Origin: a virus
Strand: one strand, 5' to 3'
IMG/VR virus record: IMGVR_UViG_3300045988_167732
Coordinates: 32,001-96,000 of that record
Length of the DNA: 64,000 nucleotides
This document shows positions 2,569-27,153 of the stretch, piece after piece (positions within the stretch are counted from its first letter, which is position 1; each line of letters opens with the position of its first letter). Under the pieces are notes generated by a model. It did no database searches. It worked only from the letters and a program-made list of their open reading frames with translations, and was not told the DNA's origin. Position numbers and translations under genes: made by a program.

Positions 2569-3683
2569 TTTATTTAGACCATGCGGCTACAACTTTTGTA
2601 TCGCCTGAAATCATTGATATTATTAAAGATGATTTAGCTGAATATTGGGGTAATGCAAGCACGACCTATGGTTTAGGGCGCAAGAGTAAAAATTTAATTG
2701 AGGAAAGTCGTGCAAAAATTGCACATGTTATAGGTGCTTTTCCAGAAGAAATTTATTTTACTTCTGGTAGTAGCGAAGGTAATGCGTGGGCTTTAGCTCA
2801 AAAAAGCAAATGTTTATGTAGTCCTTATGAGCATCATAATATCACAGAAAATCCCAAGTCAATAATTATTGATAAGAATTATCTTATTGATGCTGTTAAA
2901 GTTACAGAGAAAAGTGAAGAGTTGGGTTTTCTGTGGGGAGATTATAGTGGATTTCTTTTGTCTTGGATGTATGTAAATAATGAGACAGGAGAAATTTTTA
3001 ATCCTCGTGAACATATGGATTTAGCTCATAGACTTAATATGTATTATCATTGTGATATGACACAGGCTTTAGGTAATGTTCCTATTGATATTAGACACAT
3101 GGCTGACATTGCTACTTTTAGTGGACATAAGGTGCATTCTCCTAAAGGTGTTGGCTTTATTTATTTTTCAAAAGACACTTTTCCTGTTGAGAAGATTAAG
3201 CCTTTAATTTATGGTGGGGACCAAGAAAGTAATCGTAGAGCTGGTACTGAAAATATTCCTTATATTCATGCTTTAGCTTTAACTGTTGATAAAGCTGTTG
3301 CACATCAAAAAGAAAAAGATTTAGCTTGTAAGAAAATGAAGAAAGCTTTCCTTGAAGAGCTTGGTAAATTATTTGAACCAAATGATTATATGATTGTTTC
3401 TCCTGCAAATAGTATTAATTCTACAGTGTGTGTTTGCTTCCACAATGTAGAGGGAGAAATTCTTCAATCTATGTTAGATGAAAAGGAAATTTATGTAGGG
3501 ACAGGAAGTGCATGTAATACAGGAGATATGAAAGCATCTGCTGTGTTAGAAGCTATGAAGATTCCAGAAGATTATATTCGTGGAGAAATTAGAATTTCTA
3601 TGAATGAAACTCAGAATACAGTTGAAGATGTAATTGAGACTGCAAGAGTATTACATGAATGTTATAAAATGGTTAGGAGTTGA
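2565..3683 (+). CDS. cysteine desulfurase (class V aminotransferase, NifS/IscS-like)
   Basis: N-terminal IYLDHAATT, PLP-lysine context SGHKVHSPKGVG, C-terminal GTGSACN active-site Cys loop. Confidence 0.85.
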   Translation: MIYLDHAATTFVSPEIIDIIKDDLAEYWGNASTTYGLGRKSKNLIEESRAKIAHVIGAFPEEIYFTSGSSEGNAWALAQKSKCLCSPYEHHNITENPKSIIIDKNYLIDAVKVTEKSEELGFLWGDYSGFLLSWMYVNNETGEIFNPREHMDLAHRLNMYYHCDMTQALGNVPIDIRHMADIATFSGHKVHSPKGVGFIYFSKDTFPVEKIKPLIYGGDQESNRRAGTENIPYIHALALTVDKAVAHQKEKDLACKKMKKAFLEELGKLFEPNDYMIVSPANSINSTVCVCFHNVEGEILQSMLDEKEIYVGTGSACNTGDMKASAVLEAMKIPEDYIRGEIRISMNETQNTVEDVIETARVLHECYKMVRS

Positions 3684-3688
3684 TTATA

Positions 3689-6388
3689 ATGAACTTTAAG
3701 CCAAGTACATATCAACAAGATATTTTAGATTTTTTTCTTAACAATCCTCAAAGTAACATGCTTGTAAATGCTTTGGCTGGAAGTGGTAAGTCAACAACTG
3801 CTTGTATGCTTTCTGAACATTCAAAAACTTCTGATTTATATATTGCATTTAATGCAAGCGTAGTTGAAGAGTTTAAGAAAAAAATTAAGAATCCTAAGAC
3901 TAAGGTTATGACGATGCATTCTTTAGCATATTCTATTATGCTTTATAATGTAGAACAAGAATCCAAGGATTCAGGAGAAAAGCCAAAAGGTTTTGGTTCT
4001 CAGCGCTCTAAAAGAACTGTGAGTTTAGATAATTTTAAGCCACATAAAATTCTTGATGAAGAAATTACAAAACGTTATGGTAGATATATTGAATTTGCCA
4101 AACGAGTTTTCTTGAAAGATAATTATGTAAATCTTTATAATTTATGCAGATTAACTCTTACAGATATGTCTTCAAATAAAGATGTATCTCGTTTAATTGA
4201 TGACCATGTGTTATTTTTATATTATGGTGATGAAGGTTATTCTGCACCCGATATTAGTGAAATTACTTCCACTTTGAAGATTCTTGATACTAAAAGTAGA
4301 CAGCAATTTGAAACTCAAGGTGTAATTGATTTTACTGACATGCTTTGGATTACTTTTAATAAACTTAAATATGATAATTGGGAAGTTCCTTATTGGGCTT
4401 TGTATACAAATATTTATTGTGATGAATGTCAAGATTTTAGTAATATCCAATTAAATTTCTTAAAGTTTATTAAAAGAGCTAAAGGAAGATATATTTTCAT
4501 TGGAGATTATCATCAATGTCAACCAGCAGGGACTAAAATTAAACTGATTGATGGAAAAGAAAAAAATATTGAAGATATTCAATATGGAGATAGAGTTGTA
4601 GAATATAGTACAAGTAGAGGTAGTTTTCTTTGTACTGAACGAGAGCGAGTGGGTGGCGGATTCGACAACTGTTTTTGTGGAGTAAAAAGTAAAGGTCTAT
4701 CTACCCCTAAATATTATACAGTATTAGACAAACAAGAATTTTTTACGGATTGTTTAATTAAAGTTACTCTTGAAAACGACTTTACGTCTCGTTATACAAC
4801 AAATCATAATTGTTATGTGAGATTTAATAGAGAAGCCACACAAAATGCCACTTGTCTTTATTTAATGGAAAGAAATGATGGTTATTTTAGAATTGGTACT
4901 GTAAAAATGTATGCTTCTCAAGCAACATTGGGAGTTAAGTATCGCGCAAGAGCAGAAAAGTTTGACCGTTGTTGGATTTTAGATGTTTTTGATAATGAAA
5001 CTTCTGCTTGGATGGCAGAGCAAACATATTCATTAAAATATCAAATTCCACAATTAATTTTTCAATTTGATAAAACTAAATATACTGAACAAGACTTAAT
5101 TACTTTATATAATGAGCTTCCTGAAATGAGAAGTAGAGCCATTGCTTTGTTAGAGTATTTTGGAAGAGATATTAATTATCCTTTGTGGTCAAGAGGAGAT
5201 ATTAATAATCATACTGCAAGAGACCATTGTTTTATTACACAATCGTGTAATATTATTCCTAAATATATGGATGCAATGATTTTTGATTCGACAAATACAA
5301 GGAAAAATAAAACAAGTATTGTTGCTACTTATAAAAATATTCAAAAAGTAGAAAAAGAGATTGGGGTTCAAAAAGTATATGGAATTACAACATCTTCTTA
5401 TCATAACTATATAGCTGATGGAATTTTAACTCATAATAGTATCTATAATTTTGCTGGTGCTAATGCTCAAGCTTTTAATCAAATTCCTAAGATGTTTGCT
5501 CCTGTAGAAACTTTTGATTTACCTATTTGTTATCGTTGTGCCAAATCTCATCTTAGTAGAGTAAATAGAGAATACGGAATTCCTATTCTTCCTCGTGATG
5601 GTGCTCCATTAGGATTCGTTAAAACTATTGACAAAAACAAAATTTCAGAGTATGCTAAAGCAGGAGACATGGTAATTTCCAGAAAAAACAAATGGATAGC
5701 TGAAGTAGTACTTGATTTAGCTCGAAATGGAACTCCCATTTTTATTGAAGATAAAGAGATGGTAGGGGCAATTAAAAGACAGATTTTATCATCCAAATGT
5801 ACCTCGGTTGGCGCACTCAAAAAATTTCTCCAGAAAGTAATAAGTAATTATAATAAAAAACTCTTTGAAATCGTTTCAAAAAATGTCCGTGAGGGGGGAC
5901 ACGAGGAAGAGCATTTGGAAGCCGTGACGGAGACAAATTCTAAGATAGATAACACGAGCTTTTTGTTGGAGATTTTGGAGGGTTATCTTGAACATCATGC
6001 TTCTTCTGACAGTGTTTCTAAATTCTCTAATTTTATTGATAAACTGTTAAATACGACTCCTTCTCCTAATTGTGTTAGACTTTGTAGTATCCATAAAGCT
6101 AAAGGTCTTGAAGCTACAAATGTTTTTGTTTTGAATGAAGCTAAAATTAATTACGATTTTAGGAATAGTAAAGAACAAAATATTCAGGAAAAGAATTTAA
6201 GTTATATTGCAACTACTCGTGCAAAAGAAGGTTTGTATCTTGTTAAAGAACCTTCTAAGACAATAACTACTAGAAATACTGATTATCTTCTTTCAGATAA
6301 CTATCTTCTTCCAGATAACGATGTCTTAAAGAAAAGGGAACAGGATTTTAAGAAAGCTATTGTACGAGAAACTATGGGTTGTTTTTAA
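3689..6388 (+). CDS. UvrD/PcrA-like SF1 helicase interrupted by an intein
   Basis: Walker A ALAGSGKST, DECQD, motif III GDYHQ/SIYNFAGA split by a Hint domain, C-terminal HKAKGLEA and TTRAKEGLY motifs. Confidence 0.85.
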   Translation: MNFKPSTYQQDILDFFLNNPQSNMLVNALAGSGKSTTACMLSEHSKTSDLYIAFNASVVEEFKKKIKNPKTKVMTMHSLAYSIMLYNVEQESKDSGEKPKGFGSQRSKRTVSLDNFKPHKILDEEITKRYGRYIEFAKRVFLKDNYVNLYNLCRLTLTDMSSNKDVSRLIDDHVLFLYYGDEGYSAPDISEITSTLKILDTKSRQQFETQGVIDFTDMLWITFNKLKYDNWEVPYWALYTNIYCDECQDFSNIQLNFLKFIKRAKGRYIFIGDYHQCQPAGTKIKLIDGKEKNIEDIQYGDRVVEYSTSRGSFLCTERERVGGGFDNCFCGVKSKGLSTPKYYTVLDKQEFFTDCLIKVTLENDFTSRYTTNHNCYVRFNREATQNATCLYLMERNDGYFRIGTVKMYASQATLGVKYRARAEKFDRCWILDVFDNETSAWMAEQTYSLKYQIPQLIFQFDKTKYTEQDLITLYNELPEMRSRAIALLEYFGRDINYPLWSRGDINNHTARDHCFITQSCNIIPKYMDAMIFDSTNTRKNKTSIVATYKNIQKVEKEIGVQKVYGITTSSYHNYIADGILTHNSIYNFAGANAQAFNQIPKMFAPVETFDLPICYRCAKSHLSRVNREYGIPILPRDGAPLGFVKTIDKNKISEYAKAGDMVISRKNKWIAEVVLDLARNGTPIFIEDKEMVGAIKRQILSSKCTSVGALKKFLQKVISNYNKKLFEIVSKNVREGGHEEEHLEAVTETNSKIDNTSFLLEILEGYLEHHASSDSVSKFSNFIDKLLNTTPSPNCVRLCSIHKAKGLEATNVFVLNEAKINYDFRNSKEQNIQEKNLSYIATTRAKEGLYLVKEPSKTITTRNTDYLLSDNYLLPDNDVLKKREQDFKKAIVRETMGCF
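4517..5437 (+). mobile_element. intein (307 aa) inside helicase motif III
   Basis: Starts with Cys (CQPAGTKIKLIDG). Has block B TTNHNCYV and ends ..GILTHN followed by Ser. Removal rejoins GDYHQ-SIYNFAGA. Confidence 0.8.
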
Positions 6389-6635: not shown

Positions 6636-7355
6636 ATGGCTAATATTTTTAGTCGCAATTACAAGTTTGATGAGCCAAAGGTAACTTCTACTCAGAATAA
6701 GGATTATTTTACTACCGCAGTTGCTTCTACTGATGAAGATGGTAAGATTGTTTCTACTTCTGGTTATGTTTCTGTTTTGAAGCCCAAGGTAATGCATTGT
6801 CCTGACTGTGGTTGTCCTCTTGTGGTGCGTGATGGTAAGCTTGAATTTGCCGATGAAGATGATGAAGTCGATGATAACAGTTATGAAAATCCTGTTGAGT
6901 ACGAAGAAGTAAATAAGGATATGTTCGACCTTCCTCCTTATTACAATATCTGTTATGGTATCCCCGCTGACCTCTCTTTAGGTAGCGATACTGCTCGTAG
7001 ACTTGACAATTATTATCATATTGTTGATAAGATTCCTAATAAGTTTGATGAGCGTTGTGCTGGTGAAGCTATTTGGATTCGGAATTTATTTTTACTTATG
7101 ATTGCTAATAAGAAGTATGAACCAATTACTATGACTAATCTTGAACATTGTGTTGAAGACCTTGCTCAATATTGTATTAATGAAGAGATTTCTTATCTTG
7201 CTATGCCTTTTATTGGGTGTGGTAAGGGTAATCTTGATTGGGAAGATGTTCGTGAAATGATTCTTCGTGTTTTTACTGAAACGATTGAAGATGCTAAAAA
7301 GTTTGACGAGGTAAGCAAGAATTATAAGATTCATCTTACTTTCTGCTACCAGTAA
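6636..7355 (+). CDS. zinc-ribbon protein with possible C-terminal macro-like domain
   Basis: HCPDCGCP ribbon. C-terminal LAMPFIGCGKGNLDWEDV resembles the macro-domain IGcGxgGL loop. AAG/CTT-type codon usage. Confidence 0.5.
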   Translation: MANIFSRNYKFDEPKVTSTQNKDYFTTAVASTDEDGKIVSTSGYVSVLKPKVMHCPDCGCPLVVRDGKLEFADEDDEVDDNSYENPVEYEEVNKDMFDLPPYYNICYGIPADLSLGSDTARRLDNYYHIVDKIPNKFDERCAGEAIWIRNLFLLMIANKKYEPITMTNLEHCVEDLAQYCINEEISYLAMPFIGCGKGNLDWEDVREMILRVFTETIEDAKKFDEVSKNYKIHLTFCYQ

Positions 7356-8390: not shown

Positions 8391-9650
8391 ATGGAATATT
8401 GTAAATATCTTATTTTAGTAGACCCTAATAATAATGGGGTTGATTCAAACAAATTCTACAAAATGGCTGGAAATGGTGATAATACGTTTACTGTAGAATA
8501 TGGTCGTGTTGGTGCTGCTCCTCAAACTAAAACTTATCCTATGTCTAAATGGAATTCTACTCTTTCTTCTAAGTTGAAGAAGGGATATGTTGACCGTTCT
8601 GATTTAATGCAGGAAGTTATTGCTGATTCTAAAGTTGAAGACAAGTCTAATGGTGTAGATGAATTTGGTTTGGTTCAAAACCTATCTGTCCGAGAGATTA
8701 TCAAGCGTCTTTGGGATTATGCTAATAAGACTATTCAATCTGCTTATTCTGTTCGTGCTGAAGCTGTTACTCAGGCTATGATTGATGCCGCTCAGGAAAA
8801 GATTGACTATATTGCAGCGAATTACAAAAACTGGTCTGTTGAGGAATTTAATAAGAATTTAAATGAGTTGTTCATTATTGTTCCTCGTAAGATGAAGCGT
8901 GTTTCTGATTGTCTTGTTTCTGATTCTTCCGAATATGATAAAAAGCTTTCCGAGGAACAGAGCTTGCTTGATACTATGGCTGGTCAAGTTTATAAACCCA
9001 AGGCAAAAATTGCTGACACTGATTCTGAGATTAAGGCTTCTGAAAGCATTTTGCAGAAGATGGGTATTACCATGGAAGAAGCTACTCAGGAAGATGTTGC
9101 TAAAATTAAAAAGGCAATGGGCGATTCTGCTGGGAAGTTTTACAAGGCTTGGCGTGTCACTAATCTTGAGACAGAAAAGAATTATCAGAAGTTTACAACT
9201 GAAAATAATATCGGTAATGTAAAACTTCTTTGCCATGGTAGTCGCAATCAGAATTGGTTTAACATTCTTAAGATGGGCTTGAAAATTCGTCCTGCTGGTG
9301 CAATTGCAACAGGAAGTATGTTTGGCCTTGGAATCTATTGGTCCAACCCTGAAAAGTACAAAGGAGGAGTAGCTAAGTCTATTGGGTACACTTCTTTGGG
9401 TGGATATTGGACTCGTGATTATCAGAATTGTGGCTTCCTTGCCTTCTTTGATGTAGCTATCGGAGATAGTGTTGATGCCTATTCTTTTGATTCCAAGTAT
9501 TATTCTTATAATCTTGAGAGACTAAAAAAGGACAATCCTAAAGCTTGGAGTTTGTGGGCTCATGGCAATACTTCTATGCTTCGCAACGATGAAATTATCG
9601 TTTACGATGACAGACAGATGACTATTCGATATTTAGTGGAGATTAGATAA
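8391..9650 (+). CDS. PARP-like ADP-ribosyltransferase with N-terminal WGR domain
   Basis: WGR-like FYKM..TVEYGRVG. C-terminal H-Y-E pattern: LLCHGS, GLGIYWS, NDEIIVY. Confidence 0.8.
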   Translation: MEYCKYLILVDPNNNGVDSNKFYKMAGNGDNTFTVEYGRVGAAPQTKTYPMSKWNSTLSSKLKKGYVDRSDLMQEVIADSKVEDKSNGVDEFGLVQNLSVREIIKRLWDYANKTIQSAYSVRAEAVTQAMIDAAQEKIDYIAANYKNWSVEEFNKNLNELFIIVPRKMKRVSDCLVSDSSEYDKKLSEEQSLLDTMAGQVYKPKAKIADTDSEIKASESILQKMGITMEEATQEDVAKIKKAMGDSAGKFYKAWRVTNLETEKNYQKFTTENNIGNVKLLCHGSRNQNWFNILKMGLKIRPAGAIATGSMFGLGIYWSNPEKYKGGVAKSIGYTSLGGYWTRDYQNCGFLAFFDVAIGDSVDAYSFDSKYYSYNLERLKKDNPKAWSLWAHGNTSMLRNDEIIVYDDRQMTIRYLVEIR

Positions 9651-10143: not shown

Positions 10144-11020
10144 TGAATAGAAAGAAGTTTTATATGGATGCCTTTTGGGGGATGGAAATTTAAATATTCA
10201 CAAAAGCGCTAAAAATGCTACTTTTTCTTATACTTGTATTGATAAAGAAACGGTAGAAAAAGTTGCTTCTTATTTTACCAAAGATTTTTTCGGTAAGGTA
10301 TCTTTTTGTTAGTATTTTGACAAAAGAACCAATAAGGTTTATAGTCGTTATACTTATAGAACTTTATCATCTCCTGTTTTAACTGAAGAATATTATAATT
10401 GGTATCCCGATAAAAAGAAAATCATACCAAAAATAAATTTTACTCCCTTGATATGTTATTGGTGGTATATAGGTGACGGATGTTTAGATAAAAGACGTAT
10501 TTTTTTAGCGACAGATTGTTTTCCTAAAAGTAATCTGGAAGAAATCGTTTTGCCTAAATTAAACGATTTTTCACCAAGATTAATTAAAAATGGGAAAGAA
10601 ACTCATTTTAGGACTTGTTTTTCAGTTGAACGGTCTCAAAAATTTTTAGAGTATATTGGTGAATGTACTTTACCACATTTTTCTTATAAATGGGATTTTG
10701 TTCCTTTTGTAAATAATAAATATAATTTTTCAGAAAAAGAATAGAAAAATATTCTTTATTTAGCCAATCAAAATTTATCTCCTTTTTAGATTTCTAAAAT
10801 CATTTAGAAATATAATGTAGATACAATACGTTATTTTTTAAAGCAAAAAGGATTATATTCTCCTAAAGGCAACAAAGGCGCTCATTTGAAAACATTAATT
10901 AAAGAAAAAATTAATTCTCGGTTATCAGTGGAATTGATTTTAAAAGATTTAAATATTACTTTAGAACAATATTAGTATTTTTAGGATTTTGAAAAATTGA
11001 GGAATAAATATGGAATATAA
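10130..11020 (+). CDS. LAGLIDADG homing endonuclease with C-terminal HTH-like tail; needs read-through of 7 in-frame TAG codons
   Basis: Two LAGLIDADG-type motifs (LLGDGNL, WYIGDGCL) lie in one frame interrupted only by TAG. The frame continues past 10744 into LSPFxISKII..DTIRYFLK and ends at TAA 11018. Confidence 0.8.
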
Positions 11021-11834
11021 GACATTAGGTGACAGGATGAAGGGGGCTTATGAAAACAAATATCGTAATTATCTTCCTGAGAATCTTCCTGTTATCATAA
11101 GAGAAGACGGTGCTCATTTTCACAATTTCTGCCGTGGCATGAAGAAACCTTTCGACCCTATTTTTGTTAAAACCATGCAACAGACTATGCTTAAGCTCTG
11201 TGAACTTATTCCTAATGTTAAGTTTGGTTATGTTGAGTCTGATGAAATTTCTCTTGTCATGATTCAAAGTGAAAGAAATTCTCAGCCTTGGTTTGATAAT
11301 AATATTCAAAAGATTGTTAGTACATCTGCGGCTCTTTGCACTCTTTGGTTTAACAATTATTTTGCTGAGAATACTATTATTGATACAACCTTGGATATCT
11401 TTAATATAGACAAAGATTCTTACGATTGGAAAATGGTTCGTAAAGGACAAGAAATGCCTACTTTTGATAGTAGAGTATTTGTGGTCCCTGCCTTTGAAGT
11501 GCATAATTATTTTGTTTGGAGACAGCAGGATTGTACTCGAAATTCTATTCAGGCAGTTGCTCAATCTTTGTATTCTCAAAAAGAACTTCATGGTATTAAT
11601 ACTACCAAATTACAGGATAAGATGTTTACTGAAAAGGGTGTAAACTGGAACGATTATACGACAGTAGAGAAACGTGGTACTTGTGCTTATCGTATTCCTA
11701 CTACTGTTATTGGTAAAGATGGTCAAGAGACTATTCGTTATAAATGGATTCTTGATTATGAAATGCCAATTTTAACAAGTGAAGAAGGTAAAGACTTTAT
11801 TAGTCAGAAGGTATTTACCAATGAGTCTGTTTAA
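11010..11834 (+). CDS. Thg1-like protein (tRNA-His guanylyltransferase / 3'-5' polymerase family)
   Basis: GDRMKxYE, IREDGAHFHNF and FGYVESDEISLV match the Thg1 N-terminal catalytic motifs. Confidence 0.8.
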   Translation: MEYKTLGDRMKGAYENKYRNYLPENLPVIIREDGAHFHNFCRGMKKPFDPIFVKTMQQTMLKLCELIPNVKFGYVESDEISLVMIQSERNSQPWFDNNIQKIVSTSAALCTLWFNNYFAENTIIDTTLDIFNIDKDSYDWKMVRKGQEMPTFDSRVFVVPAFEVHNYFVWRQQDCTRNSIQAVAQSLYSQKELHGINTTKLQDKMFTEKGVNWNDYTTVEKRGTCAYRIPTTVIGKDGQETIRYKWILDYEMPILTSEEGKDFISQKVFTNESV

Positions 11835-15544: not shown

Positions 15545-16018
15545 ATGTCAGTGTCTATTATTCAAGGCGATGTCCTTAAGACTTCGGCAAAGTATATTTG
15601 TCATCAGGTTAATACCTTTGGCGTAATGGGCGCTGGTGTTGCTCTTCAAATTAAGAAGAATTATCCTCATGTTTATTTGGAGTATAATAAATTTTGTAGT
15701 TATCATGCTCCTGAAGAGCTTTATGGCAAAGTTCTTCGAATTGAAGAAAATAAAGATAAAGTTTTTCTTAATATGTTTTCTCAGATTGGTATTGGCGGAC
15801 CAAACGTAAACACCAATTATGAATATTTTCATGAATGTCTTCTTAAGATTCGTGAAATGATTCCTATTGGAGAAGAGATTGCTATGCCTTATATGATTGG
15901 ATGTGGTCTTGCTGGTGGAGATTGGTCTATTATTAGCGCAGATATTTCTGACACTTTAGGACTAAGCCATATTGTACGTTTGTATGATTTTAATGGCGTG
16001 ACTTCGGTGAAAAAGTAA
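15545..16018 (+). CDS. macro domain protein (ADP-ribose binding/hydrolase)
   Basis: IQGDVL..ICHQVNTFGVMGAGVA and IGCGLAGGDW are classic macro-domain motifs. Confidence 0.85.
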   Translation: MSVSIIQGDVLKTSAKYICHQVNTFGVMGAGVALQIKKNYPHVYLEYNKFCSYHAPEELYGKVLRIEENKDKVFLNMFSQIGIGGPNVNTNYEYFHECLLKIREMIPIGEEIAMPYMIGCGLAGGDWSIISADISDTLGLSHIVRLYDFNGVTSVKK

Positions 16019-16559: not shown

Positions 16560-16704
16560 GCAGGATTAGTGTTAGCGGTTAGCACGACGGTCTTCCCCTT
16601 TAATAGTTTAATGTAAAACCAATATGAAAATATTGATGTAAGTTCAAATCTTATTTAAAGGTCCAAAACCGTAAGGGCGAGTTCGAATCTCGTATCTTGC
16701 TCCA
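16560..16704 (+). tRNA. tRNA-Gly(TCC) interrupted in the anticodon loop by a 69-nt tRNA-like element
   Basis: Acceptor GCAGGAT/ATCTTGC, D-stem GTGT/GCAC, anticodon stem ACGGT/ACCGT, T-arm GCGAG-TTCGAAT-CTCGT, discriminator T plus CCA. Removing 16597-16665 leaves the loop CTTCCAA. Confidence 0.75.
16597..16665 (+). ncRNA. nested tRNA-like element (acceptor, D-arm, GAAA hairpin, T-arm, TCCA end)
   Basis: CCTTTAA/TTAAAGG acceptor, GTTT/AAAC D-stem, CAATAT-GAAA-ATATTG hairpin, GTAAG-TTCAAAT-CTTAT T-arm, then T-CCA. Confidence 0.7.
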
Positions 16705-17809: not shown

Positions 17810-17928
17810 CCTCATTAGTGTAATGGTGCATTCTCGTTAACTGATGTTGAGTAAACACTAAGGTAGCTCCTTAGCGATAACAGCCACATTGGGAGAGGAA
17901 GTTGGTTCGAATCCAATTATGGGGTCCA
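17810..17928 (+). tRNA. tRNA-like gene with a ~45-nt insertion in the anticodon region; isotype unresolved
   Basis: Acceptor CCTCATT/TATGGGG (6 of 7 pairs), T-arm GTTGG-TTCGAAT-CCAAT, T-CCA end, candidate anticodon stem TCTCG/TGGGA flanking a 52-nt segment. Confidence 0.4.
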
Positions 17929-20232: not shown

Positions 20233-20375
20233 GCCCGTGTAGCTCAGTAGGAAGAGCACTTGCCTTGATGGAGTAGTATAAGAAATACATCCTATAAAGG
20301 AAGGTGTGAGTTCAAATCTCATTTTCATCACCGTTAAGCAAGGAGTCGAGAGTTCGAGCCTCTCCACGAGCACCA
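20233..20375 (+). tRNA. tRNA-Lys(TTT) (alternative reading Asn-GTT) interrupted by a 67-nt tRNA-like element
   Basis: Canonical D and T arms, anticodon stem CTTGC/GCAAG, discriminator A plus CCA, one C-A mismatch in the acceptor. Removing 20267-20333 leaves CTTTTAA. Confidence 0.65.
20267..20333 (+). ncRNA. nested tRNA-like element (ACCG end)
   Basis: GATGGAG/TTTCATC acceptor, GTAT-AAGAA-ATAC D-arm, GTGAG-TTCAAAT-CTCAT T-arm. Confidence 0.65.
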
Positions 20376-20907: not shown

Positions 20908-21036
20908 TAGACTCTAACAGCAACTTTACAATCACAAATGCTATGGGCCTGTTTGTTGGAGGTTCGAATCCTTCACTCCCGACCATCGGGAGTTAGCTCA
21001 ACGGATAGAGCAACAGATTTTGTAAAAATGAGTCTA
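20908..21036 (+). ncRNA. P1/ACAGCAA structured RNA, copy 5: circularly permuted tRNA (3' half-ACCA-T-5' half)
   Basis: TAGACTC..GAGTCTA stem. GGAGG-TTCGAAT-CCTTC T-arm, ACTCCCG-A-CCA, one T, then CGGGAGT-TA-GCTC..GAGC D-arm and a U-rich anticodon-like segment. The acceptor is a perfect 7 bp. Confidence 0.7.
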
Positions 21037-23966: not shown

Positions 23967-24098
23967 GCTTTCGTGGCTCAATCGGTAGAGCGCCTGATTT
24001 GATAGAGTGACAGAATGTATTGTCTTAGTTTGCAAGTTCAAGTCTTGCCTTTATCACCAGTAATCAGGATGTTGCAGGTTCGAGTCCTGTCGGAAGCT
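23967..24098 (+). tRNA. tRNA-Thr(TGT) interrupted by a 59-nt tRNA-like element; host CCA not encoded
   Basis: Acceptor GCTTTCG/CGGAAGC, anticodon stem CCTGA/TCAGG. Removing 24001-24059 leaves TTTGTAA. Confidence 0.75.
24001..24059 (+). ncRNA. nested tRNA-like element (ACCA end)
   Basis: GATAGAG/CTTTATC acceptor, GACA/TGTC D-stem, 7-nt linker, GCAAG-TTCAAGT-CTTGC T-arm, A-CCA. Confidence 0.7.
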
Positions 24099-24161: not shown

Positions 24162-25037
24162 ATGAAATATTGTCTCAATTGTGGTAAAGAATTAAATAAA
24201 CAAGTAAAAAAATTTTGTGATAATAAATGTTTTGTTGAATATTAGTATCACAAATATATTAAAAACTGGAAGCTTGGTAAAATTACAGGGGTCGTTGGTT
24301 TTGGGGTTAGTAAATATATAAGAAGATATTTATTAGAAAAGTATAATTATTCTTGCCAAGAATGTGGTTGGAATAAAATTAATCCTTATACTAATAAAAC
24401 ACCTTTGGAAATTCACCATAAAGATGGAAATTATTTAAATTGTTCAGAAGAGAATTTAGCTTTGCTTTGCCCCAACTGTCATTCTTTAACAGATACTTAT
24501 AAATCTTTGAATAGACCAGAAATGAGAAGAGATAGAACAAGATACAATCAAAGACCCAATCCTTTTTTTGATGAATTAAATTGTGATAAGAAAGAAAAGA
24601 AAAAATATTTTTGTCCGGTTTGTGGCAATGAAATAACCCGCAAGGCAAAATTATGTCTTAATTGCAGAAAAAAGGAAAATTTGAAAAACTCTAATAAACC
24701 CTCTAAAGAAATTTTAATGGAAGAATCTAAAAATTTTGTCTCTTATGTAAAATTAGGGGAAAAATATGGGGTATCTGACAATACTATTAGGAAGTGGTTC
24801 TCAAGTTACGATTTGCCTCTTCCTAAAAGGGAAAAAGCAGAATATAAACCAAAAGTCTACCATCCAGAATATTAGGTTTATACAACAAGAAAAACAGCTA
24901 CAGGATGGGAAAAATACTTAAAATTGGGTCAGCATAAAATTGCTCGATATGTTCCCAACCATACTGTTTCTCAAATAGAAGATTACATAAAAATTTTTTA
25001 TGATGAAGCTGTGAAAAAAGGAATTATTAATAAATAA
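24162..25037 (+). CDS. HNH homing endonuclease (2 in-frame TAG)
   Basis: N-terminal CLNCG..C..C ribbon, HHKDGN..N..NL..LCPNCH HNH core. The frame continues through TAG at 24873 to TAA 25035. Confidence 0.8.
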
Positions 25038-25876: not shown

Positions 25877-26010
25877 GCTGATATAGCTCAATAGGTTAGA
25901 GCTTCCGACCACGAAATAGCTTAAGAAAAGCAAAGGATGTAAGTTCAAATCTTACTTTCGTGACCATTATAATCGGAGGGTTGAGTGTTCGAGCCACTCT
26001 ATCAGCACCA
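25877..26010 (+). tRNA. tRNA-Ile(TAT) interrupted by a 57-nt tRNA-like element
   Basis: Canonical arms, anticodon stem TCCGA/TCGGA, A-CCA end. Removing 25910-25966 leaves CTTATAA. Confidence 0.75.
25910..25966 (+). ncRNA. nested tRNA-like element (ACCA end, no anticodon arm)
   Basis: CACGAAA/TTTCGTG acceptor, GCTT-AAGAA-AAGC D-arm, 7-nt linker, GTAAG-TTCAAAT-CTTAC T-arm, A-CCA. Confidence 0.75.
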
Positions 26011-26997: not shown

Positions 26998-27078
26998 GCG
27001 CCTGTAGTCTAATTGGATAAAACAGCACTCTTCTAAAGTGTATTTTTTATACGAGTTCGAATCTCGTCAGGCGTACCA
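26998..27078 (+). tRNA. tRNA-Arg(TCT), CCA encoded
   Basis: Anticodon loop CTTCTAA, T-loop TTCGAAT. Confidence 0.8.
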
Positions 27079-27153
27079 TGAGGAGTAGCATAGCGGCAAA
27101 TGCACTAGTCTCTAAAACTAGGTAAACAGGGTCGGCACCTGTCTCCTCTGCCA
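27079..27153 (+). tRNA. suppressor tRNA, anticodon CTA (reads UAG)
   Basis: Anticodon arm CTAGT-CTCTAAA-ACTAG, T-arm ACAGG-GTCGGCA-CCTGT, G-CCA end. D-loop, anticodon arm and T-loop closely resemble the phage tRNA-Tyr, but the long variable arm is missing. Positions 1:72 form a T-T mismatch. Confidence 0.75.

What the first reader, a model, noticed from the sequence alone, without database searches (positions are those of the whole stretch)
16560..16704. tRNA-in-tRNA: tRNA-Gly(UCC) carries a complete small tRNA-like element ending in CCA inside its anticodon loop
The host has a clean cloverleaf: acceptor GCAGGAT/ATCTTGC, D and T arms, anticodon stem ACGGT/ACCGT, T-CCA end. Between the anticodon-stem strands lie CTTCC, then 69 nt, then AA. 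The 69 nt fold as a mini-tRNA: 7-bp acceptor CCTTTAA/TTAAAGG, D-arm, a GAAA-capped hairpin where the anticodon arm would be, T-arm with TTCAAAT loop, discriminator T and CCA. Deleting exactly that unit gives the canonical 7-nt loop CTTCCAA. The same design recurs at 20233, 23967 and 25877. In all four cases the restored anticodon has U34 (UCC, UUU, UGU, UAU) and reads an A-ending codon. The insertion point within the loop differs between hosts (36/37, about 34/35, about 34/35, 32/33). The four inserts are paralogous, sharing a TTCAAAT or TTCAAGT T-loop, and three of the four an AAGAA D-loop. This does not look like a group I intron or an archaeal BHB intron. I do not recall this architecture being described. 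One model is excision by tRNA end-processing enzymes (RNase P at the insert 5' end plus a 3' cut after CCA) followed by ligation. Another is deliberate production of tRNA halves.
Basis: partly seen in the sequence, partly recalled or inferred. Interest (0 to 1): 0.92.

Follow-up and report, generated by a model that had tools for sequence, protein, structure and literature searches.

The report
tRNA-shaped introns inside phage tRNAs
Four transfer-RNA genes of a 220-kb gut phage are each split in the anticodon loop by a 57-69-base insert that is itself a miniature tRNA; sister phages carry the same genes without the insert, so these are precise, mobile introns, and their ends fall exactly where tRNA end-processing enzymes cut, which points to a splicing route not yet demonstrated in bacteria or phages.

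Summary
tRNA-Gly(UCC), Lys(UUU), Thr(UGU) and Ile(UAU) at 16560, 20233, 23967 and 25877 each carry a 57-69-nt insert in the anticodon loop. Each insert is an anticodon-less mini-tRNA: 7-bp acceptor stem, D arm, 5-bp T stem with a 7-nt T loop, discriminator, then CCA (CCG in the Lys insert). Removing the insert from acceptor nt 1 to nt 76 restores a canonical 7-nt loop.

Related jumbo-phage contigs have syntenic tRNA arrays. Their uninterrupted Gly gene is 76/76 identical to the window's joined exons. The family covers at least 11 anticodons, at loop positions 32, 34, 35 and 36. Insert helices covary fully. The always-interrupted Ile host keeps its cloverleaf through compensatory changes, so the genes must be spliced.

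CCA tails mark nested copies (24/28) but not free-standing mini-tRNA genes (2/36).

Most likely mechanism, inferred only: RNase P cuts the 5' splice site, an RNase Z/BN-type cut follows CCA, and an Rnl-type ligase seals the nicked tRNA. No ligase was found in the 84 kb visible.

It is not wholly new. Lak megaphage "enigmatic" tRNA introns that may encode a tRNA were noted in 2019, without a mechanism. The U34 rule fails (Asp-GUC, Asn-GUU hosts).

The parts
16560..16596 (+). tRNA-Gly(UCC) 5' exon, ending in loop nucleotides CTTCC (nt 32-36)
   Evidence: Joined to the 3' exon it is 76/76 identical to the plain Gly genes of L019 and L021.
16597..16665 (+). 69-nt mini-tRNA intron: acceptor CCTTTAA/TTAAAGG, D arm GTTT-AATGTA-AAAC, GAAA-capped hairpin, T arm GTAAG-TTCAAAT-CTTAT, discriminator T, CCA
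   Evidence: Rfam tRNA 41 bits; covariance model R1 70.5 bits; minimum-free-energy fold.
16666..16704 (+). tRNA-Gly(UCC) 3' exon, starting AA (nt 37-38) and ending TCCA
20233..20266 (+). tRNA-Lys(UUU) 5' exon, ending in loop nucleotides CTT (nt 32-34)
   Evidence: The uninterrupted orthologue L001 5985-6061 has the loop CTTTTAA.
20267..20333 (+). 67-nt mini-tRNA intron: acceptor GATGGAG/TTTCATC, D arm GTAT-AAGAA-ATAC, short hairpin, T arm GTGAG-TTCAAAT-CTCAT, discriminator A, CCG
   Evidence: Rfam tRNA 41 bits; R1 67 bits; fold.
20334..20375 (+). tRNA-Lys(UUU) 3' exon, starting TTAA and ending ACCA
23967..24000 (+). tRNA-Thr(UGU) 5' exon, ending in loop nucleotides TTT (nt 32-34; the junction may lie one G further on)
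24001..24059 (+). 59-nt mini-tRNA intron: acceptor GATAGAG/CTTTATC, D arm ACAG-AATGTA-TTGT, no anticodon arm, T arm GCAAG-TTCAAGT-CTTGC, discriminator A, CCA
   Evidence: R1 57.2 bits; fold; Rfam 27.1 bits, below threshold, for a hit spanning 23967-24056.
24060..24098 (+). tRNA-Thr(UGU) 3' exon, starting GTAA and ending at discriminator T, with no encoded CCA
25877..25909 (+). tRNA-Ile(UAU) 5' exon, ending in loop nucleotide C32
25910..25966 (+). 57-nt mini-tRNA intron: acceptor CACGAAA/TTTCGTG, D arm GCTT-AAGAA-AAGC, no anticodon arm, T arm GTAAG-TTCAAAT-CTTAC, discriminator A, CCA
   Evidence: Rfam tRNA 43.2 bits; R1 66.1 bits; fold.
25967..26010 (+). tRNA-Ile(UAU) 3' exon, starting TTATAA and ending ACCA
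   Evidence: The host cloverleaf covaries across six alleles that are all interrupted.

Best explanation
These are true introns in phage tRNA genes, and they are mobile. Each intron is a miniature tRNA without an anticodon arm, placed inside the anticodon loop of a normal tRNA.

Shown:
- Removing the insert from nt 1 of its own acceptor stem through the third nucleotide after its discriminator restores a canonical tRNA.
- Intron-less alleles with identical exons exist in sister phages.
- Both the intron fold and the host fold are under selection.

Inferred mechanism:
1. The precursor folds as two nested cloverleaves.
2. RNase P treats the 5' exon as a leader and cuts at the intron's nt +1, leaving a 3'-OH on the 5' exon.
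3. A tRNA 3'-end endonuclease of the RNase Z/BN type cuts after the intron's CCA and treats the 3' exon as a trailer, leaving a 5'-phosphate on it.
4. The two exons stay paired through the host's acceptor and anticodon stems, as a tRNA nicked in its anticodon loop.
5. An ATP-dependent RNA ligase of the Rnl1/Rnl2 tRNA-repair kind, encoded by the phage or the host, seals the nick.
6. The intron is released as a mature-looking mini-tRNA.

Spread among phages is at least partly by recombination between alleles. How a mini-tRNA first enters a new tRNA is unknown.
For: Boundaries:
- In 35 distinct nested inserts from IMG/VR, the window and MAG contigs, and in 28 more from metagenome contigs, the insert starts at its acceptor nt 1 and ends 3 nt after its discriminator. 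Its place in the host loop varies: after nt 32, 34, 35 or 36.
- Intron-plus and intron-minus alleles have identical exons for Gly, Gln and Thr. For Lys there is a plain orthologue with the same acceptor stem.

What is conserved is what RNase P, RNase Z and the CCA-adding enzyme read:
- A contiguous 7+5-bp acceptor/T stack, the T loop T-[T/G]-C-R-A-R-N, a first nucleotide of G or C only, and a discriminator that is mostly A.
- The anticodon arm is dispensable. The Gly intron exists in a 69-nt form and a 58-nt form without the hairpin.

Covariation:
- In the inserts, 100% of cells pair and 7 of 7 acceptor pairs show changes on both sides. The covariation score is 0.82, against 0.31 for shuffles and 0.13-0.24 for slid partners.
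- RNAalifold recovers the same helices de novo.
- G-U pairs show that the constraint acts on the sense RNA.

CCA:
- 30 of 35 and 24 of 28 nested inserts end in CCA, against 2 of 36 free-standing mini-tRNA genes (p = 2e-11).
- Some free-standing copies lack CCA even in contigs whose ordinary tRNA genes do encode it.
- All 16 ordinary tRNA genes of the window encode CCA.

The host genes are functional:
- In 14 syntenic arrays the anticodons that are ever interrupted occur at most once each, so the interrupted gene fills the slot.
- Ile-UAU is interrupted in all 14 arrays, yet its cloverleaf is 100% paired, with 12 of 21 pairs compensated.

Context:
- RNase P and RNase Z leave 3'-OH and 5'-P ends, which are the substrate of Rnl-type ligases (established enzymology).
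- Jumbo phages commonly carry Rnl1, Rnl2 or RtcB repair suites (PMC7824862).
- The window has other RNA-repair-associated genes: Thg1, and Ro60/TROVE with a YrlA-like RNA.
- A polynucleotide-kinase-like gene lies 3.5 kb from a nested Leu tRNA in L138.
- In the Lak phage Thr, Phe and Gly introns, the 3' boundary falls at the discriminator of the embedded tRNA-like element, which is the other natural tRNA 3' processing site (my reading of Table S6).
Against: - There are no RNA data. No spliced junction, free intron or end chemistry has been observed.
- No RNA ligase, RtcB or polynucleotide kinase was found in any tested ORF of the window or in the 10-kb flanks. About 137 kb of the 220.8-kb genome could not be read.
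- The 3' cut is the weak step. CCA blocks most bacterial RNase Z enzymes. Cutting after CCA is known to me only for Thermotoga maritima RNase Z and E. coli RNase BN (from memory).
- Tail variants CCG, TCA and CAA persist in several phages, so the cut cannot depend strictly on CCA.
- The Lak introns carry a 5' hairpin and linker ahead of the tRNA-like part. RNase P alone cannot define their 5' splice site, so a different shared machinery is possible.
- The parser that collected the instances required the pairing, which inflates the percentage of paired cells. It does not inflate the allele identities or the Rfam hits.
Confidence: 0.5

Rival explanations
1. A dedicated splicing endonuclease, encoded by the phage or the host, recognises the nested junction or a feature of the mini-tRNA and cuts both sites. 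It leaves 2',3'-cyclic phosphate and 5'-OH ends, which are joined by RtcB or by a polynucleotide kinase plus an Rnl ligase. RNase P and RNase Z play no part.
For: The Lak introns have a 5' extension that RNase P cannot explain. A polynucleotide-kinase-like gene lies near a nested tRNA in L138. Macro-domain, PARP and NADAR genes lie near the array. Tail variants are tolerated. Many ORFs in and near the tRNA array have no recognisable family.
Against: No EndA/Sen-like, HEPN or RtcB gene was seen in the 84 kb examined. It does not explain why exactly the RNase P/Z recognition half of a tRNA, together with CCA, is conserved while the position within the host loop is free. Any tRNA-shaped RNA in a bacterium is expected to be cut by RNase P in any case.
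Confidence: 0.22
2. The host tRNAs are not rejoined. The locus exists to express the mini-tRNA, or to yield tRNA halves, and the flanking tRNA serves only as a carrier or is a dead gene.
For: Free-standing mini-tRNA-like genes exist in phage and MAG contigs, so the small RNA may have a function of its own. The bacterial host supplies its own tRNAs, so the loss of a phage tRNA could be tolerated.
Against: The exons are identical to intact alleles. In 14 syntenic arrays no second copy of the interrupted gene's anticodon is present. The host Ile cloverleaf shows 12 compensated pairs although it is interrupted in all 14 phages. Every restored loop in this phage clade and in L004, L048, L060 and L138 has U33 and a purine at 37; a few calls from MAG and metagenome contigs depart from this (CTGTCTA, CCTTCAA).
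Confidence: 0.08
3. The inserts are small DNA transposons (of MITE or IS200/IS605 PATE type, perhaps moved by the TnpB/TnpA system of the phage) that happened to land in tRNA genes.
For: A TnpB gene lies at 62183-63502. The inserts have 7-bp terminal inverted repeats and are polymorphic between genomes.
Against: There is no target-site duplication, and empty sites are exactly the joined exons. There is no common target motif. The stems use G-U pairs on the sense strand only. The tRNA T-loop consensus is conserved and Rfam scores the inserts as tRNA. All insertions are in anticodon loops and in the sense orientation.
Confidence: 0.03
4. The intron is self-splicing, that is, a new small ribozyme.
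For: Bacterial tRNA introns known so far are self-splicing group I introns (established knowledge).
Against: The introns are 50-123 nt long. There is no Rfam ribozyme or group I hit. Apart from the generic tRNA T loop nothing is conserved in sequence, and the acceptor stems differ completely between lineages.
Confidence: 0.03

Closest known systems
Lak megaphage 'enigmatic' tRNA introns (Devoto et al. 2019, Nat Microbiol, PMC6784885)
   Same: They are introns in the anticodon loop of phage-encoded tRNAs in gut phages. One intron (Thr-UGU) was noted to 'itself encode a possible tRNA' with an Rfam tRNA hit. Intron-plus and intron-minus alleles were seen. No mechanism is known.
   Different: By my reading of their Table S6, the Lak introns have a 5' hairpin, an A-rich linker and then the tRNA-like part. 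They end at or 1 nt after its discriminator, have no CCA, and all sit at about 36/37, in Tyr-GUA, Phe-GAA, Thr-UGU and Gly-UCC. Here the intron is only the mini-tRNA, both boundaries are its own ends including CCA, and the position varies from 32 to 36. The phages are unrelated: about 220 kb here against 540 kb for Lak.
Archaeal and eukaryal tRNA introns cut at a bulge-helix-bulge motif by the splicing endonuclease
   Same: The intron is removed by proteins and the exons are then ligated. Non-canonical positions are known in Crenarchaeota. An intron can encode a functional small RNA, as with the C/D box RNA in archaeal tRNA-Trp.
   Different: There is no BHB geometry here, and the intron is a tRNA mimic. 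Cleavage would give 5'-P/3'-OH ends if RNase P and RNase Z act, whereas the BHB endonuclease gives 2',3'-cyclic phosphate and 5'-OH. The setting is a bacterial virus.
Group I introns in bacterial tRNA anticodon loops (for example cyanobacterial tRNA-Leu(UAA))
   Same: The location in the anticodon loop of a bacterial-type tRNA, the mobility, and the patchy distribution.
   Different: The inserts are 50-123 nt long rather than 200 nt or more, have no catalytic core, no terminal G and no Rfam hit.
tRNA-like processing signals cut by RNase P and RNase Z (mitochondrial tRNA punctuation; MALAT1 mascRNA; engineered tRNA-gRNA arrays)
   Same: A tRNA-shaped element inside a longer transcript marks where RNase P and RNase Z cut, and the element is released as a small RNA.
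   Different: In those cases the flanking RNAs are separate products and are never rejoined. Here the flanks must be ligated to make a tRNA.
Phage T4 tRNA repair (PrrC anticodon nuclease; Pnkp; Rnl1)
   Same: The proposed last step is the same reaction: sealing a tRNA that is nicked in the anticodon loop. tRNA-Lys(UUU) is the T4 case.
   Different: In T4 the break is damage inflicted by the host, not programmed processing. No Rnl gene has yet been found in this phage.
YrlA-type bacterial Y RNAs (tRNA-like module bound by Ro60)
   Same: It is an anticodon-less tRNA mimic with acceptor, D and T arms. One such RNA, together with a Ro60/TROVE gene, is present in this same window.
   Different: YrlA is free-standing and permuted, with its acceptor stem closed by a loop, and it carries a Ro-binding stem. 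The introns have none of this.

Membership tests
Lak-type phage tRNA introns (Devoto 2019) | Intron inside the anticodon loop of a phage-encoded tRNA, with intron-less alleles in related phages | tested here: met
Lak-type phage tRNA introns (Devoto 2019) | The intron contains a tRNA-like element that the Rfam tRNA model detects | tested here: met
   41-43 bits for three of the four inserts, above the gathering score of 29.
Lak-type phage tRNA introns (Devoto 2019) | Architecture of 5' hairpin, A-rich linker and tRNA-like part, ending at the discriminator, at position about 36/37 | tested here: not met
   Table S6 compared. Here there is no 5' extension, the end is N73 plus 3 nt, and the positions are 32-36.
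Group I intron | Conserved P3-P9 catalytic core (Rfam RF00028) and a length of about 200 nt or more | tested here: not met
   No hit. The inserts are 50-123 nt long.
Group I intron | Terminal G at the intron's 3' end | tested here: not met
   33 of 35 inserts end in A (30 of them CCA) and 2 in G.
BHB (archaeal/eukaryal) tRNA intron | Two 3-nt bulges carrying the splice sites, separated by a 4-bp helix | tested here: not met
   The folds show the splice sites flanking a 7-bp helix, with 1-5 nt unpaired on the 5' side and 6-10 nt on the 3' side.
BHB (archaeal/eukaryal) tRNA intron | A splicing endonuclease (EndA/Sen) is encoded or available | tested here: inconclusive
   None was found among the tested ORFs and flanks. 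About 137 kb of the genome and the host genome were not seen.
tRNA (decoding) | Acceptor, D and T arms | tested here: met
tRNA (decoding) | Anticodon arm with a 7-nt loop | tested here: not met
   It is absent in the Thr and Ile inserts, a GAAA tetraloop hairpin in Gly, and a short hairpin in Lys.
Bacterial RNase P / RNase Z substrate | 12-bp acceptor/T-stem stack, T loop and 3' RCCA | tested here: met
   CCA is present in 30 of 35 inserts.
Bacterial RNase P / RNase Z substrate | Actual cleavage at nt +1 and after nt 76 | not testable with these tools
   This needs an enzyme assay or RNA end mapping.
MITE / IS200-IS605 PATE DNA element | Target-site duplication or a fixed target motif, with strand-neutral terminal structure | tested here: not met
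   Empty sites equal the joined exons. G-U pairs occur on the sense strand only. The flanking nucleotides differ between sites.
T4-type tRNA repair / ligation pathway | An Rnl1/Rnl2 or RtcB gene in the phage genome | tested here: inconclusive
   It was not found in the 64-kb window or the 20 kb of flanks.

The most novel reading that the evidence does not exclude
This would be a third route of tRNA splicing, alongside self-splicing group I introns and BHB-endonuclease splicing. The intron is a tRNA mimic, and its two splice sites are simply the 5' and 3' maturation sites cut by the universal tRNA end-processing enzymes (RNase P and an RNase Z/BN-type nuclease). The nicked anticodon loop is then sealed by a tRNA-repair ligase.

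The same chemistry run backwards would be the route by which these introns colonise new tRNAs. A repair ligase would join a mature mini-tRNA, with its 5'-P and CCA-3'-OH ends, into an anticodon loop broken by a nuclease, and the product would then be copied back into DNA. That would explain why nested copies carry CCA and free-standing genes do not.
Probability: 0.35. Interest if true: 0.92.

Novelty: new variant of a known kind. Interest (0 to 1): 0.8.

Why it matters
Outside self-splicing group I introns, bacteria and their viruses are thought to lack tRNA introns.

- The phenomenon is common. This scan shows many gut jumbo phages carrying up to five interrupted tRNA genes per genome in the arrays tabulated. 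Default bacterial tRNA finders miss them, and intron modes assign the wrong anticodon (Gly is called Trp). Phage tRNA repertoires and codon-usage inferences are therefore biased.
- The architecture gives a sharp, cheap-to-test hypothesis for a new splicing pathway built only from housekeeping tRNA enzymes and a repair ligase. It may also explain the 'enigmatic' Lak megaphage introns.
- It links phage tRNA repair, anticodon-nuclease defence and intron mobility.
- tRNA-Ile(UAU) is always interrupted. This parallels eukaryotic tRNA-Ile(UAU), whose intron is needed for anticodon pseudouridylation (from memory), and hints at a function beyond selfishness.
- A tRNA-shaped, self-excising cassette could also be useful in synthetic biology.

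Tried and rejected
1. U34-only rule. It holds for the 8 host anticodons found in IMG/VR (all 7 interrupted slots of the array are among its 12 U34 slots of 20, hypergeometric p about 0.01). It is broken by Asp-GUC (L148, L154, L265) and Asn-GUU (L247, L262), and by Lak Tyr and Phe.
2. Insert subfamily dictates insertion position. The ACAG/TTGT D-arm subfamily is always after nt 34 (Thr, Pro), but the GTTT/AAAC subfamily occurs after nt 34, 35 and 36. There is no strict rule.
3. HNH homing endonucleases as drivers. HNH genes and remnants are scattered through the tRNA arrays, and one lies just 3' of the interrupted Thr gene. They are not significantly closer to interrupted than to plain tRNAs (8/42 against 22/228, p = 0.10).
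4. Search for an RNA ligase, RtcB or polynucleotide kinase. Pfam, PHROGs and NCBIfam searches on about 45 window ORFs, plus precomputed Pfam on the 10-kb flanks, found nothing. Comparison with PDB sequences for two unknown ORFs also found nothing. The remaining 137 kb could not be fetched with these tools.
5. Cultured relatives. blastn of the locus against the INPHARED collection gave no match. The best protein matches are to Bacillus phages at about 40% identity.
6. ARAGORN's alternative reading of Gly as Trp(CCA). It is rejected because the joined exons are identical to plain Gly(UCC) genes and the discriminator is U73.
7. Literature. Eight searches found no description of a tRNA-shaped intron or of RNase P-dependent splicing, other than the Lak note.
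Full report
**What is in the window**

The window is part of a 220,795-bp contig from a metagenome assembly, ENA ERZ28659889 scaffold_22. The ZELL14 label and related contigs titled 'human gut metagenome' suggest a human gut origin. The ORFs with recognisable families all lie on the + strand.

- Between 13.4 and 27.2 kb lies an array of 16 ordinary tRNA genes, all with an encoded CCA.
- Nearby genes include Thg1, a Ro60/TROVE protein, PARP, macro-domain proteins, a UvrD helicase with an intein, and TnpB.

**The four interrupted genes**

Default ARAGORN misses four further tRNA genes, and ARAGORN in intron mode finds them:
- Gly(UCC) at 16560-16704
- Lys(UUU) at 20233-20375
- Thr(UGU) at 23967-24098
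- Ile(UAU) at 25877-26010

Each has a normal acceptor stem, D arm, anticodon stem and T arm. Each carries 69, 67, 59 or 57 extra nucleotides inside the anticodon loop.

- The Rfam tRNA model scores three of the inserts themselves at 41-43 bits, against a gathering score of 29.
- Each insert folds on its own into a 7-bp acceptor stem, a D arm, a 5-bp T stem with a 7-nt T loop, and a 4-nt tail.
- The anticodon arm is missing (Thr, Ile) or replaced by a small hairpin (Gly, Lys).
- Random shuffles almost never give 7/7 plus 5/5 pairs at the fixed ends: 0-10 in 200,000.

**The boundary rule and its independent confirmation**

Deleting the insert from nt 1 of its acceptor stem to the third nucleotide after its discriminator gives the loops CTTCCAA, CTTTTAA, TTTGTAA and CTTATAA. 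All have U33 and A37.

A protein from the array retrieved 13 related IMG/VR contigs of 116-216 kb. Their tRNA arrays are syntenic, and the anticodons that are ever interrupted occur at most once per array.

- The slots for Pro-UGG, Gly-UCC, Glu-UUC, Lys-UUU, Thr-UGU and Gln-UUG are interrupted in some phages and plain in others.
- The Ile-UAU slot is interrupted in all 14 arrays, after nt 32 in some and after nt 36 in others.
- The window's joined Gly exons are 76/76 identical to the plain Gly genes of L019 and L021.
- The same exact identity holds for Gln (L015 against L019; L018 against L021, L023 and L024) and for Thr (L016 against L019).
- A plain Lys orthologue with the same acceptor stem has the loop CTTTTAA.

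The boundaries are therefore real, there is no target-site duplication, and the elements are gained or lost precisely. They behave as introns.

**Selection on both folds**

*Inserts.*
- Fourteen diverse inserts align with 100% of cells paired in the acceptor and T stems.
- All seven acceptor pairs show changes on both sides.
- The covariation score is 0.82, against 0.31 for shuffles and at most 0.24 for slid partners.
- RNAalifold recovers the same helices unprompted.
- Frequent G-U pairs show that the constraint acts on the sense RNA.
- A caveat is that my parser required near-complete pairing when it collected instances. This inflates the paired percentage but not the diversity of pair types, the Rfam scores or the allele identities.

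*Host.* Six alleles of tRNA-Ile(UAU), all interrupted, keep a perfect cloverleaf with 12 of 21 pairs compensated. A gene that is never uninterrupted yet keeps its cloverleaf must yield a functional tRNA, so the insert must be removed from the RNA.

**How wide the family is**

- A covariance model of the inserts (R1) scores the four window copies at 57-70 bits and ordinary tRNAs at 31 bits or less. The window has no further copies.
- Pattern scans of IMG/VR, GTDB genomes and metagenome contigs, followed by the boundary-rule parser, found the same architecture in other phage lineages. Examples are L060 (233 kb), L048 (219 kb), L138, and L004 (which also has a ROOL RNA).
- It also occurs in MAG contigs binned as gut Clostridia.
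- Hosts now include Leu-UAA, Arg-UCU, Asp-GUC and Asn-GUU.
- Insert lengths run from 50 to 123 nt, with all the extra sequence in the place of the anticodon arm.
- Free-standing mini-tRNA-like genes also exist. Some lie 3 nt after a tmRNA gene in Mycoplasmataceae MAGs.

**The CCA tail**

- Of 35 distinct nested inserts, 30 end in CCA. The rest end in CCG, TCA or CAA.
- In the metagenome set, 24 of 28 nested copies end in CCA, against 2 of 36 free-standing copies (p = 2e-11).
- Some free-standing copies lack CCA even in contigs whose ordinary tRNA genes encode it.

CCA is thus tied to the nested state. It could be a requirement for splicing, a mark of origin from a mature RNA, or both.

**Mechanism (inferred)**

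The conserved part is exactly the half of a tRNA that RNase P, RNase Z and the CCA-adding enzyme read. It comprises the 12-bp acceptor/T stack, the T loop and elbow, G or C at +1, and the discriminator plus CCA. The position within the host loop is free.

The simplest reading has four steps:
1. The 5' exon is a leader removed by RNase P.
2. The 3' exon is a trailer released by a cut after CCA.
3. The exons remain paired as a tRNA nicked in the anticodon loop, with 3'-OH and 5'-P ends.
4. An Rnl-type repair ligase seals the nick, as T4 Rnl1 does after PrrC damage.

Jumbo phages often encode such ligases (PMC7824862). In the Lak introns the 3' boundary sits at the discriminator of the embedded tRNA-like element, which is the other natural 3' processing site. 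That fits the same logic.

Weak points:
- No ligase was found in the 84 kb I could read.
- An endonuclease that cuts after CCA is known only in a few bacteria (from memory).
- Tail variants persist in several phages.
- The Lak introns have a 5' extension that RNase P cannot account for.

I put the full model at about 0.5. I put the narrower claim, that these are precisely spliced mobile introns whose ends are defined by the mini-tRNA, at about 0.9.

**Comparison with what is known**

- Group I: excluded by size, by the lack of a core, by the lack of a terminal G and by the lack of Rfam hits.
- BHB: excluded because there is no bulge-helix-bulge geometry.
- DNA transposons: excluded because there is no duplication, the G-U pairs are strand-specific and the T-loop consensus is that of a tRNA.

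The closest precedent is one section of Devoto et al. 2019. It reports 'enigmatic' introns in Lak megaphage tRNAs, one of which may itself encode a tRNA, with intron-less alleles and no mechanism. No follow-up was found in eight literature searches.

The present family differs from the Lak introns in three ways:
- The intron is only the mini-tRNA.
- Both ends are the mini-tRNA's own ends, including CCA.
- The position in the loop varies.

It also adds the evidence of selection and of breadth. I therefore rate it a new variant of a barely described kind, with a mechanism that would be new if confirmed.

Noticed in passing
window 20931-21029 and 39375-41144: A YrlA-like Y RNA (Rfam RF02553, 41.4 bits, below the gathering score of 69). 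It has a permuted tRNA-like module: a T arm, an acceptor hairpin closed by CCA, and a D arm. A Ro60/TROVE-family gene lies in the same window, so this looks like a phage-encoded Ro/Y-RNA pair. ARAGORN's intron mode miscalls the equivalent RNA in relatives as 'Thr tgt' with an intron of about 100 nt.
   Followed up: partly
window 17810-17928: A conserved 119-nt tRNA-like RNA with an acceptor stem, a canonical T arm and a TCCA end. About 55 nt sit where the anticodon loop should be, including the hairpin CTAAGG-TAGCT-CCTTAG. Its length is constant across 9 alleles in relatives. It is not of the mini-tRNA intron class. The same GGTAGCTCC hairpin occurs inside the 87-nt Thr intron of L016.
   Followed up: partly
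window 24162-24875 and 27079-27153: An HNH endonuclease gene just 3' of the interrupted Thr gene has an in-frame TAG at 24243. The phage encodes a suppressor tRNA(CUA) at 27079-27153, which abuts tRNA-Arg(UCU) (26998-27078) with no spacer. Either TAG is read through or the gene is decaying.
   Followed up: no
window 11010-11834; L022 18850-19142 (also L010, L021): The window has a Thg1-family 3'-5' nucleotidyltransferase gene but no tRNA-His. Relatives carry a His-like tRNA with an insert of about 196 nt and a T:C mismatch at pair 1:72. This may be a substrate for 5'-end repair.
   Followed up: partly
window 3680-6388, 8391-9650, 6636-7355, 15545-16018, 62183-63502: A UvrD-like helicase interrupted by an intein, a PARP catalytic domain with a WGR domain, two macro-domain proteins, and a TnpB (IS605 OrfB) gene. 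Just upstream of the window lie NADAR, an NAD-dependent DNA ligase and what appear to be two adjacent NrdD gene fragments (L029).
   Followed up: no
L004 5326-5903: A ROOL RNA (Rfam, 322 bits) next to tRNA genes, in a 131-kb phage contig that also carries a nested tRNA-Glu(UUC) with a 106-nt mini-tRNA intron.
   Followed up: no
L151, L159, L161 (Mycoplasmataceae MAG contigs); L066, L105, L078 and L006 (phage contigs): Free-standing mini-tRNA-like genes that lack an anticodon arm and an encoded CCA. In the Mycoplasmataceae MAGs they lie 3 nt after the 3' end of tmRNA. They are possible ancestors of the introns, or relatives with a function of their own.
   Followed up: partly
L001 9411-9483, L008 8384-8456, L011 4933-5005 (also L017, L023, L024, L027): A tRNA with an 8-nt anticodon loop and a four-base anticodon GGTA lies directly after tRNA-Thr(UGU) in several relatives. 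It is absent from the window.
   Followed up: no
L138 4124-5056: A polynucleotide-kinase-like gene (Pfam AAA_33, PHROG phrog_505) lies 3.5 kb upstream of a nested tRNA-Leu(UAA). It is followed by a conserved 679-aa protein of unknown function, which is 79% identical to an ORF in L060.
   Followed up: partly
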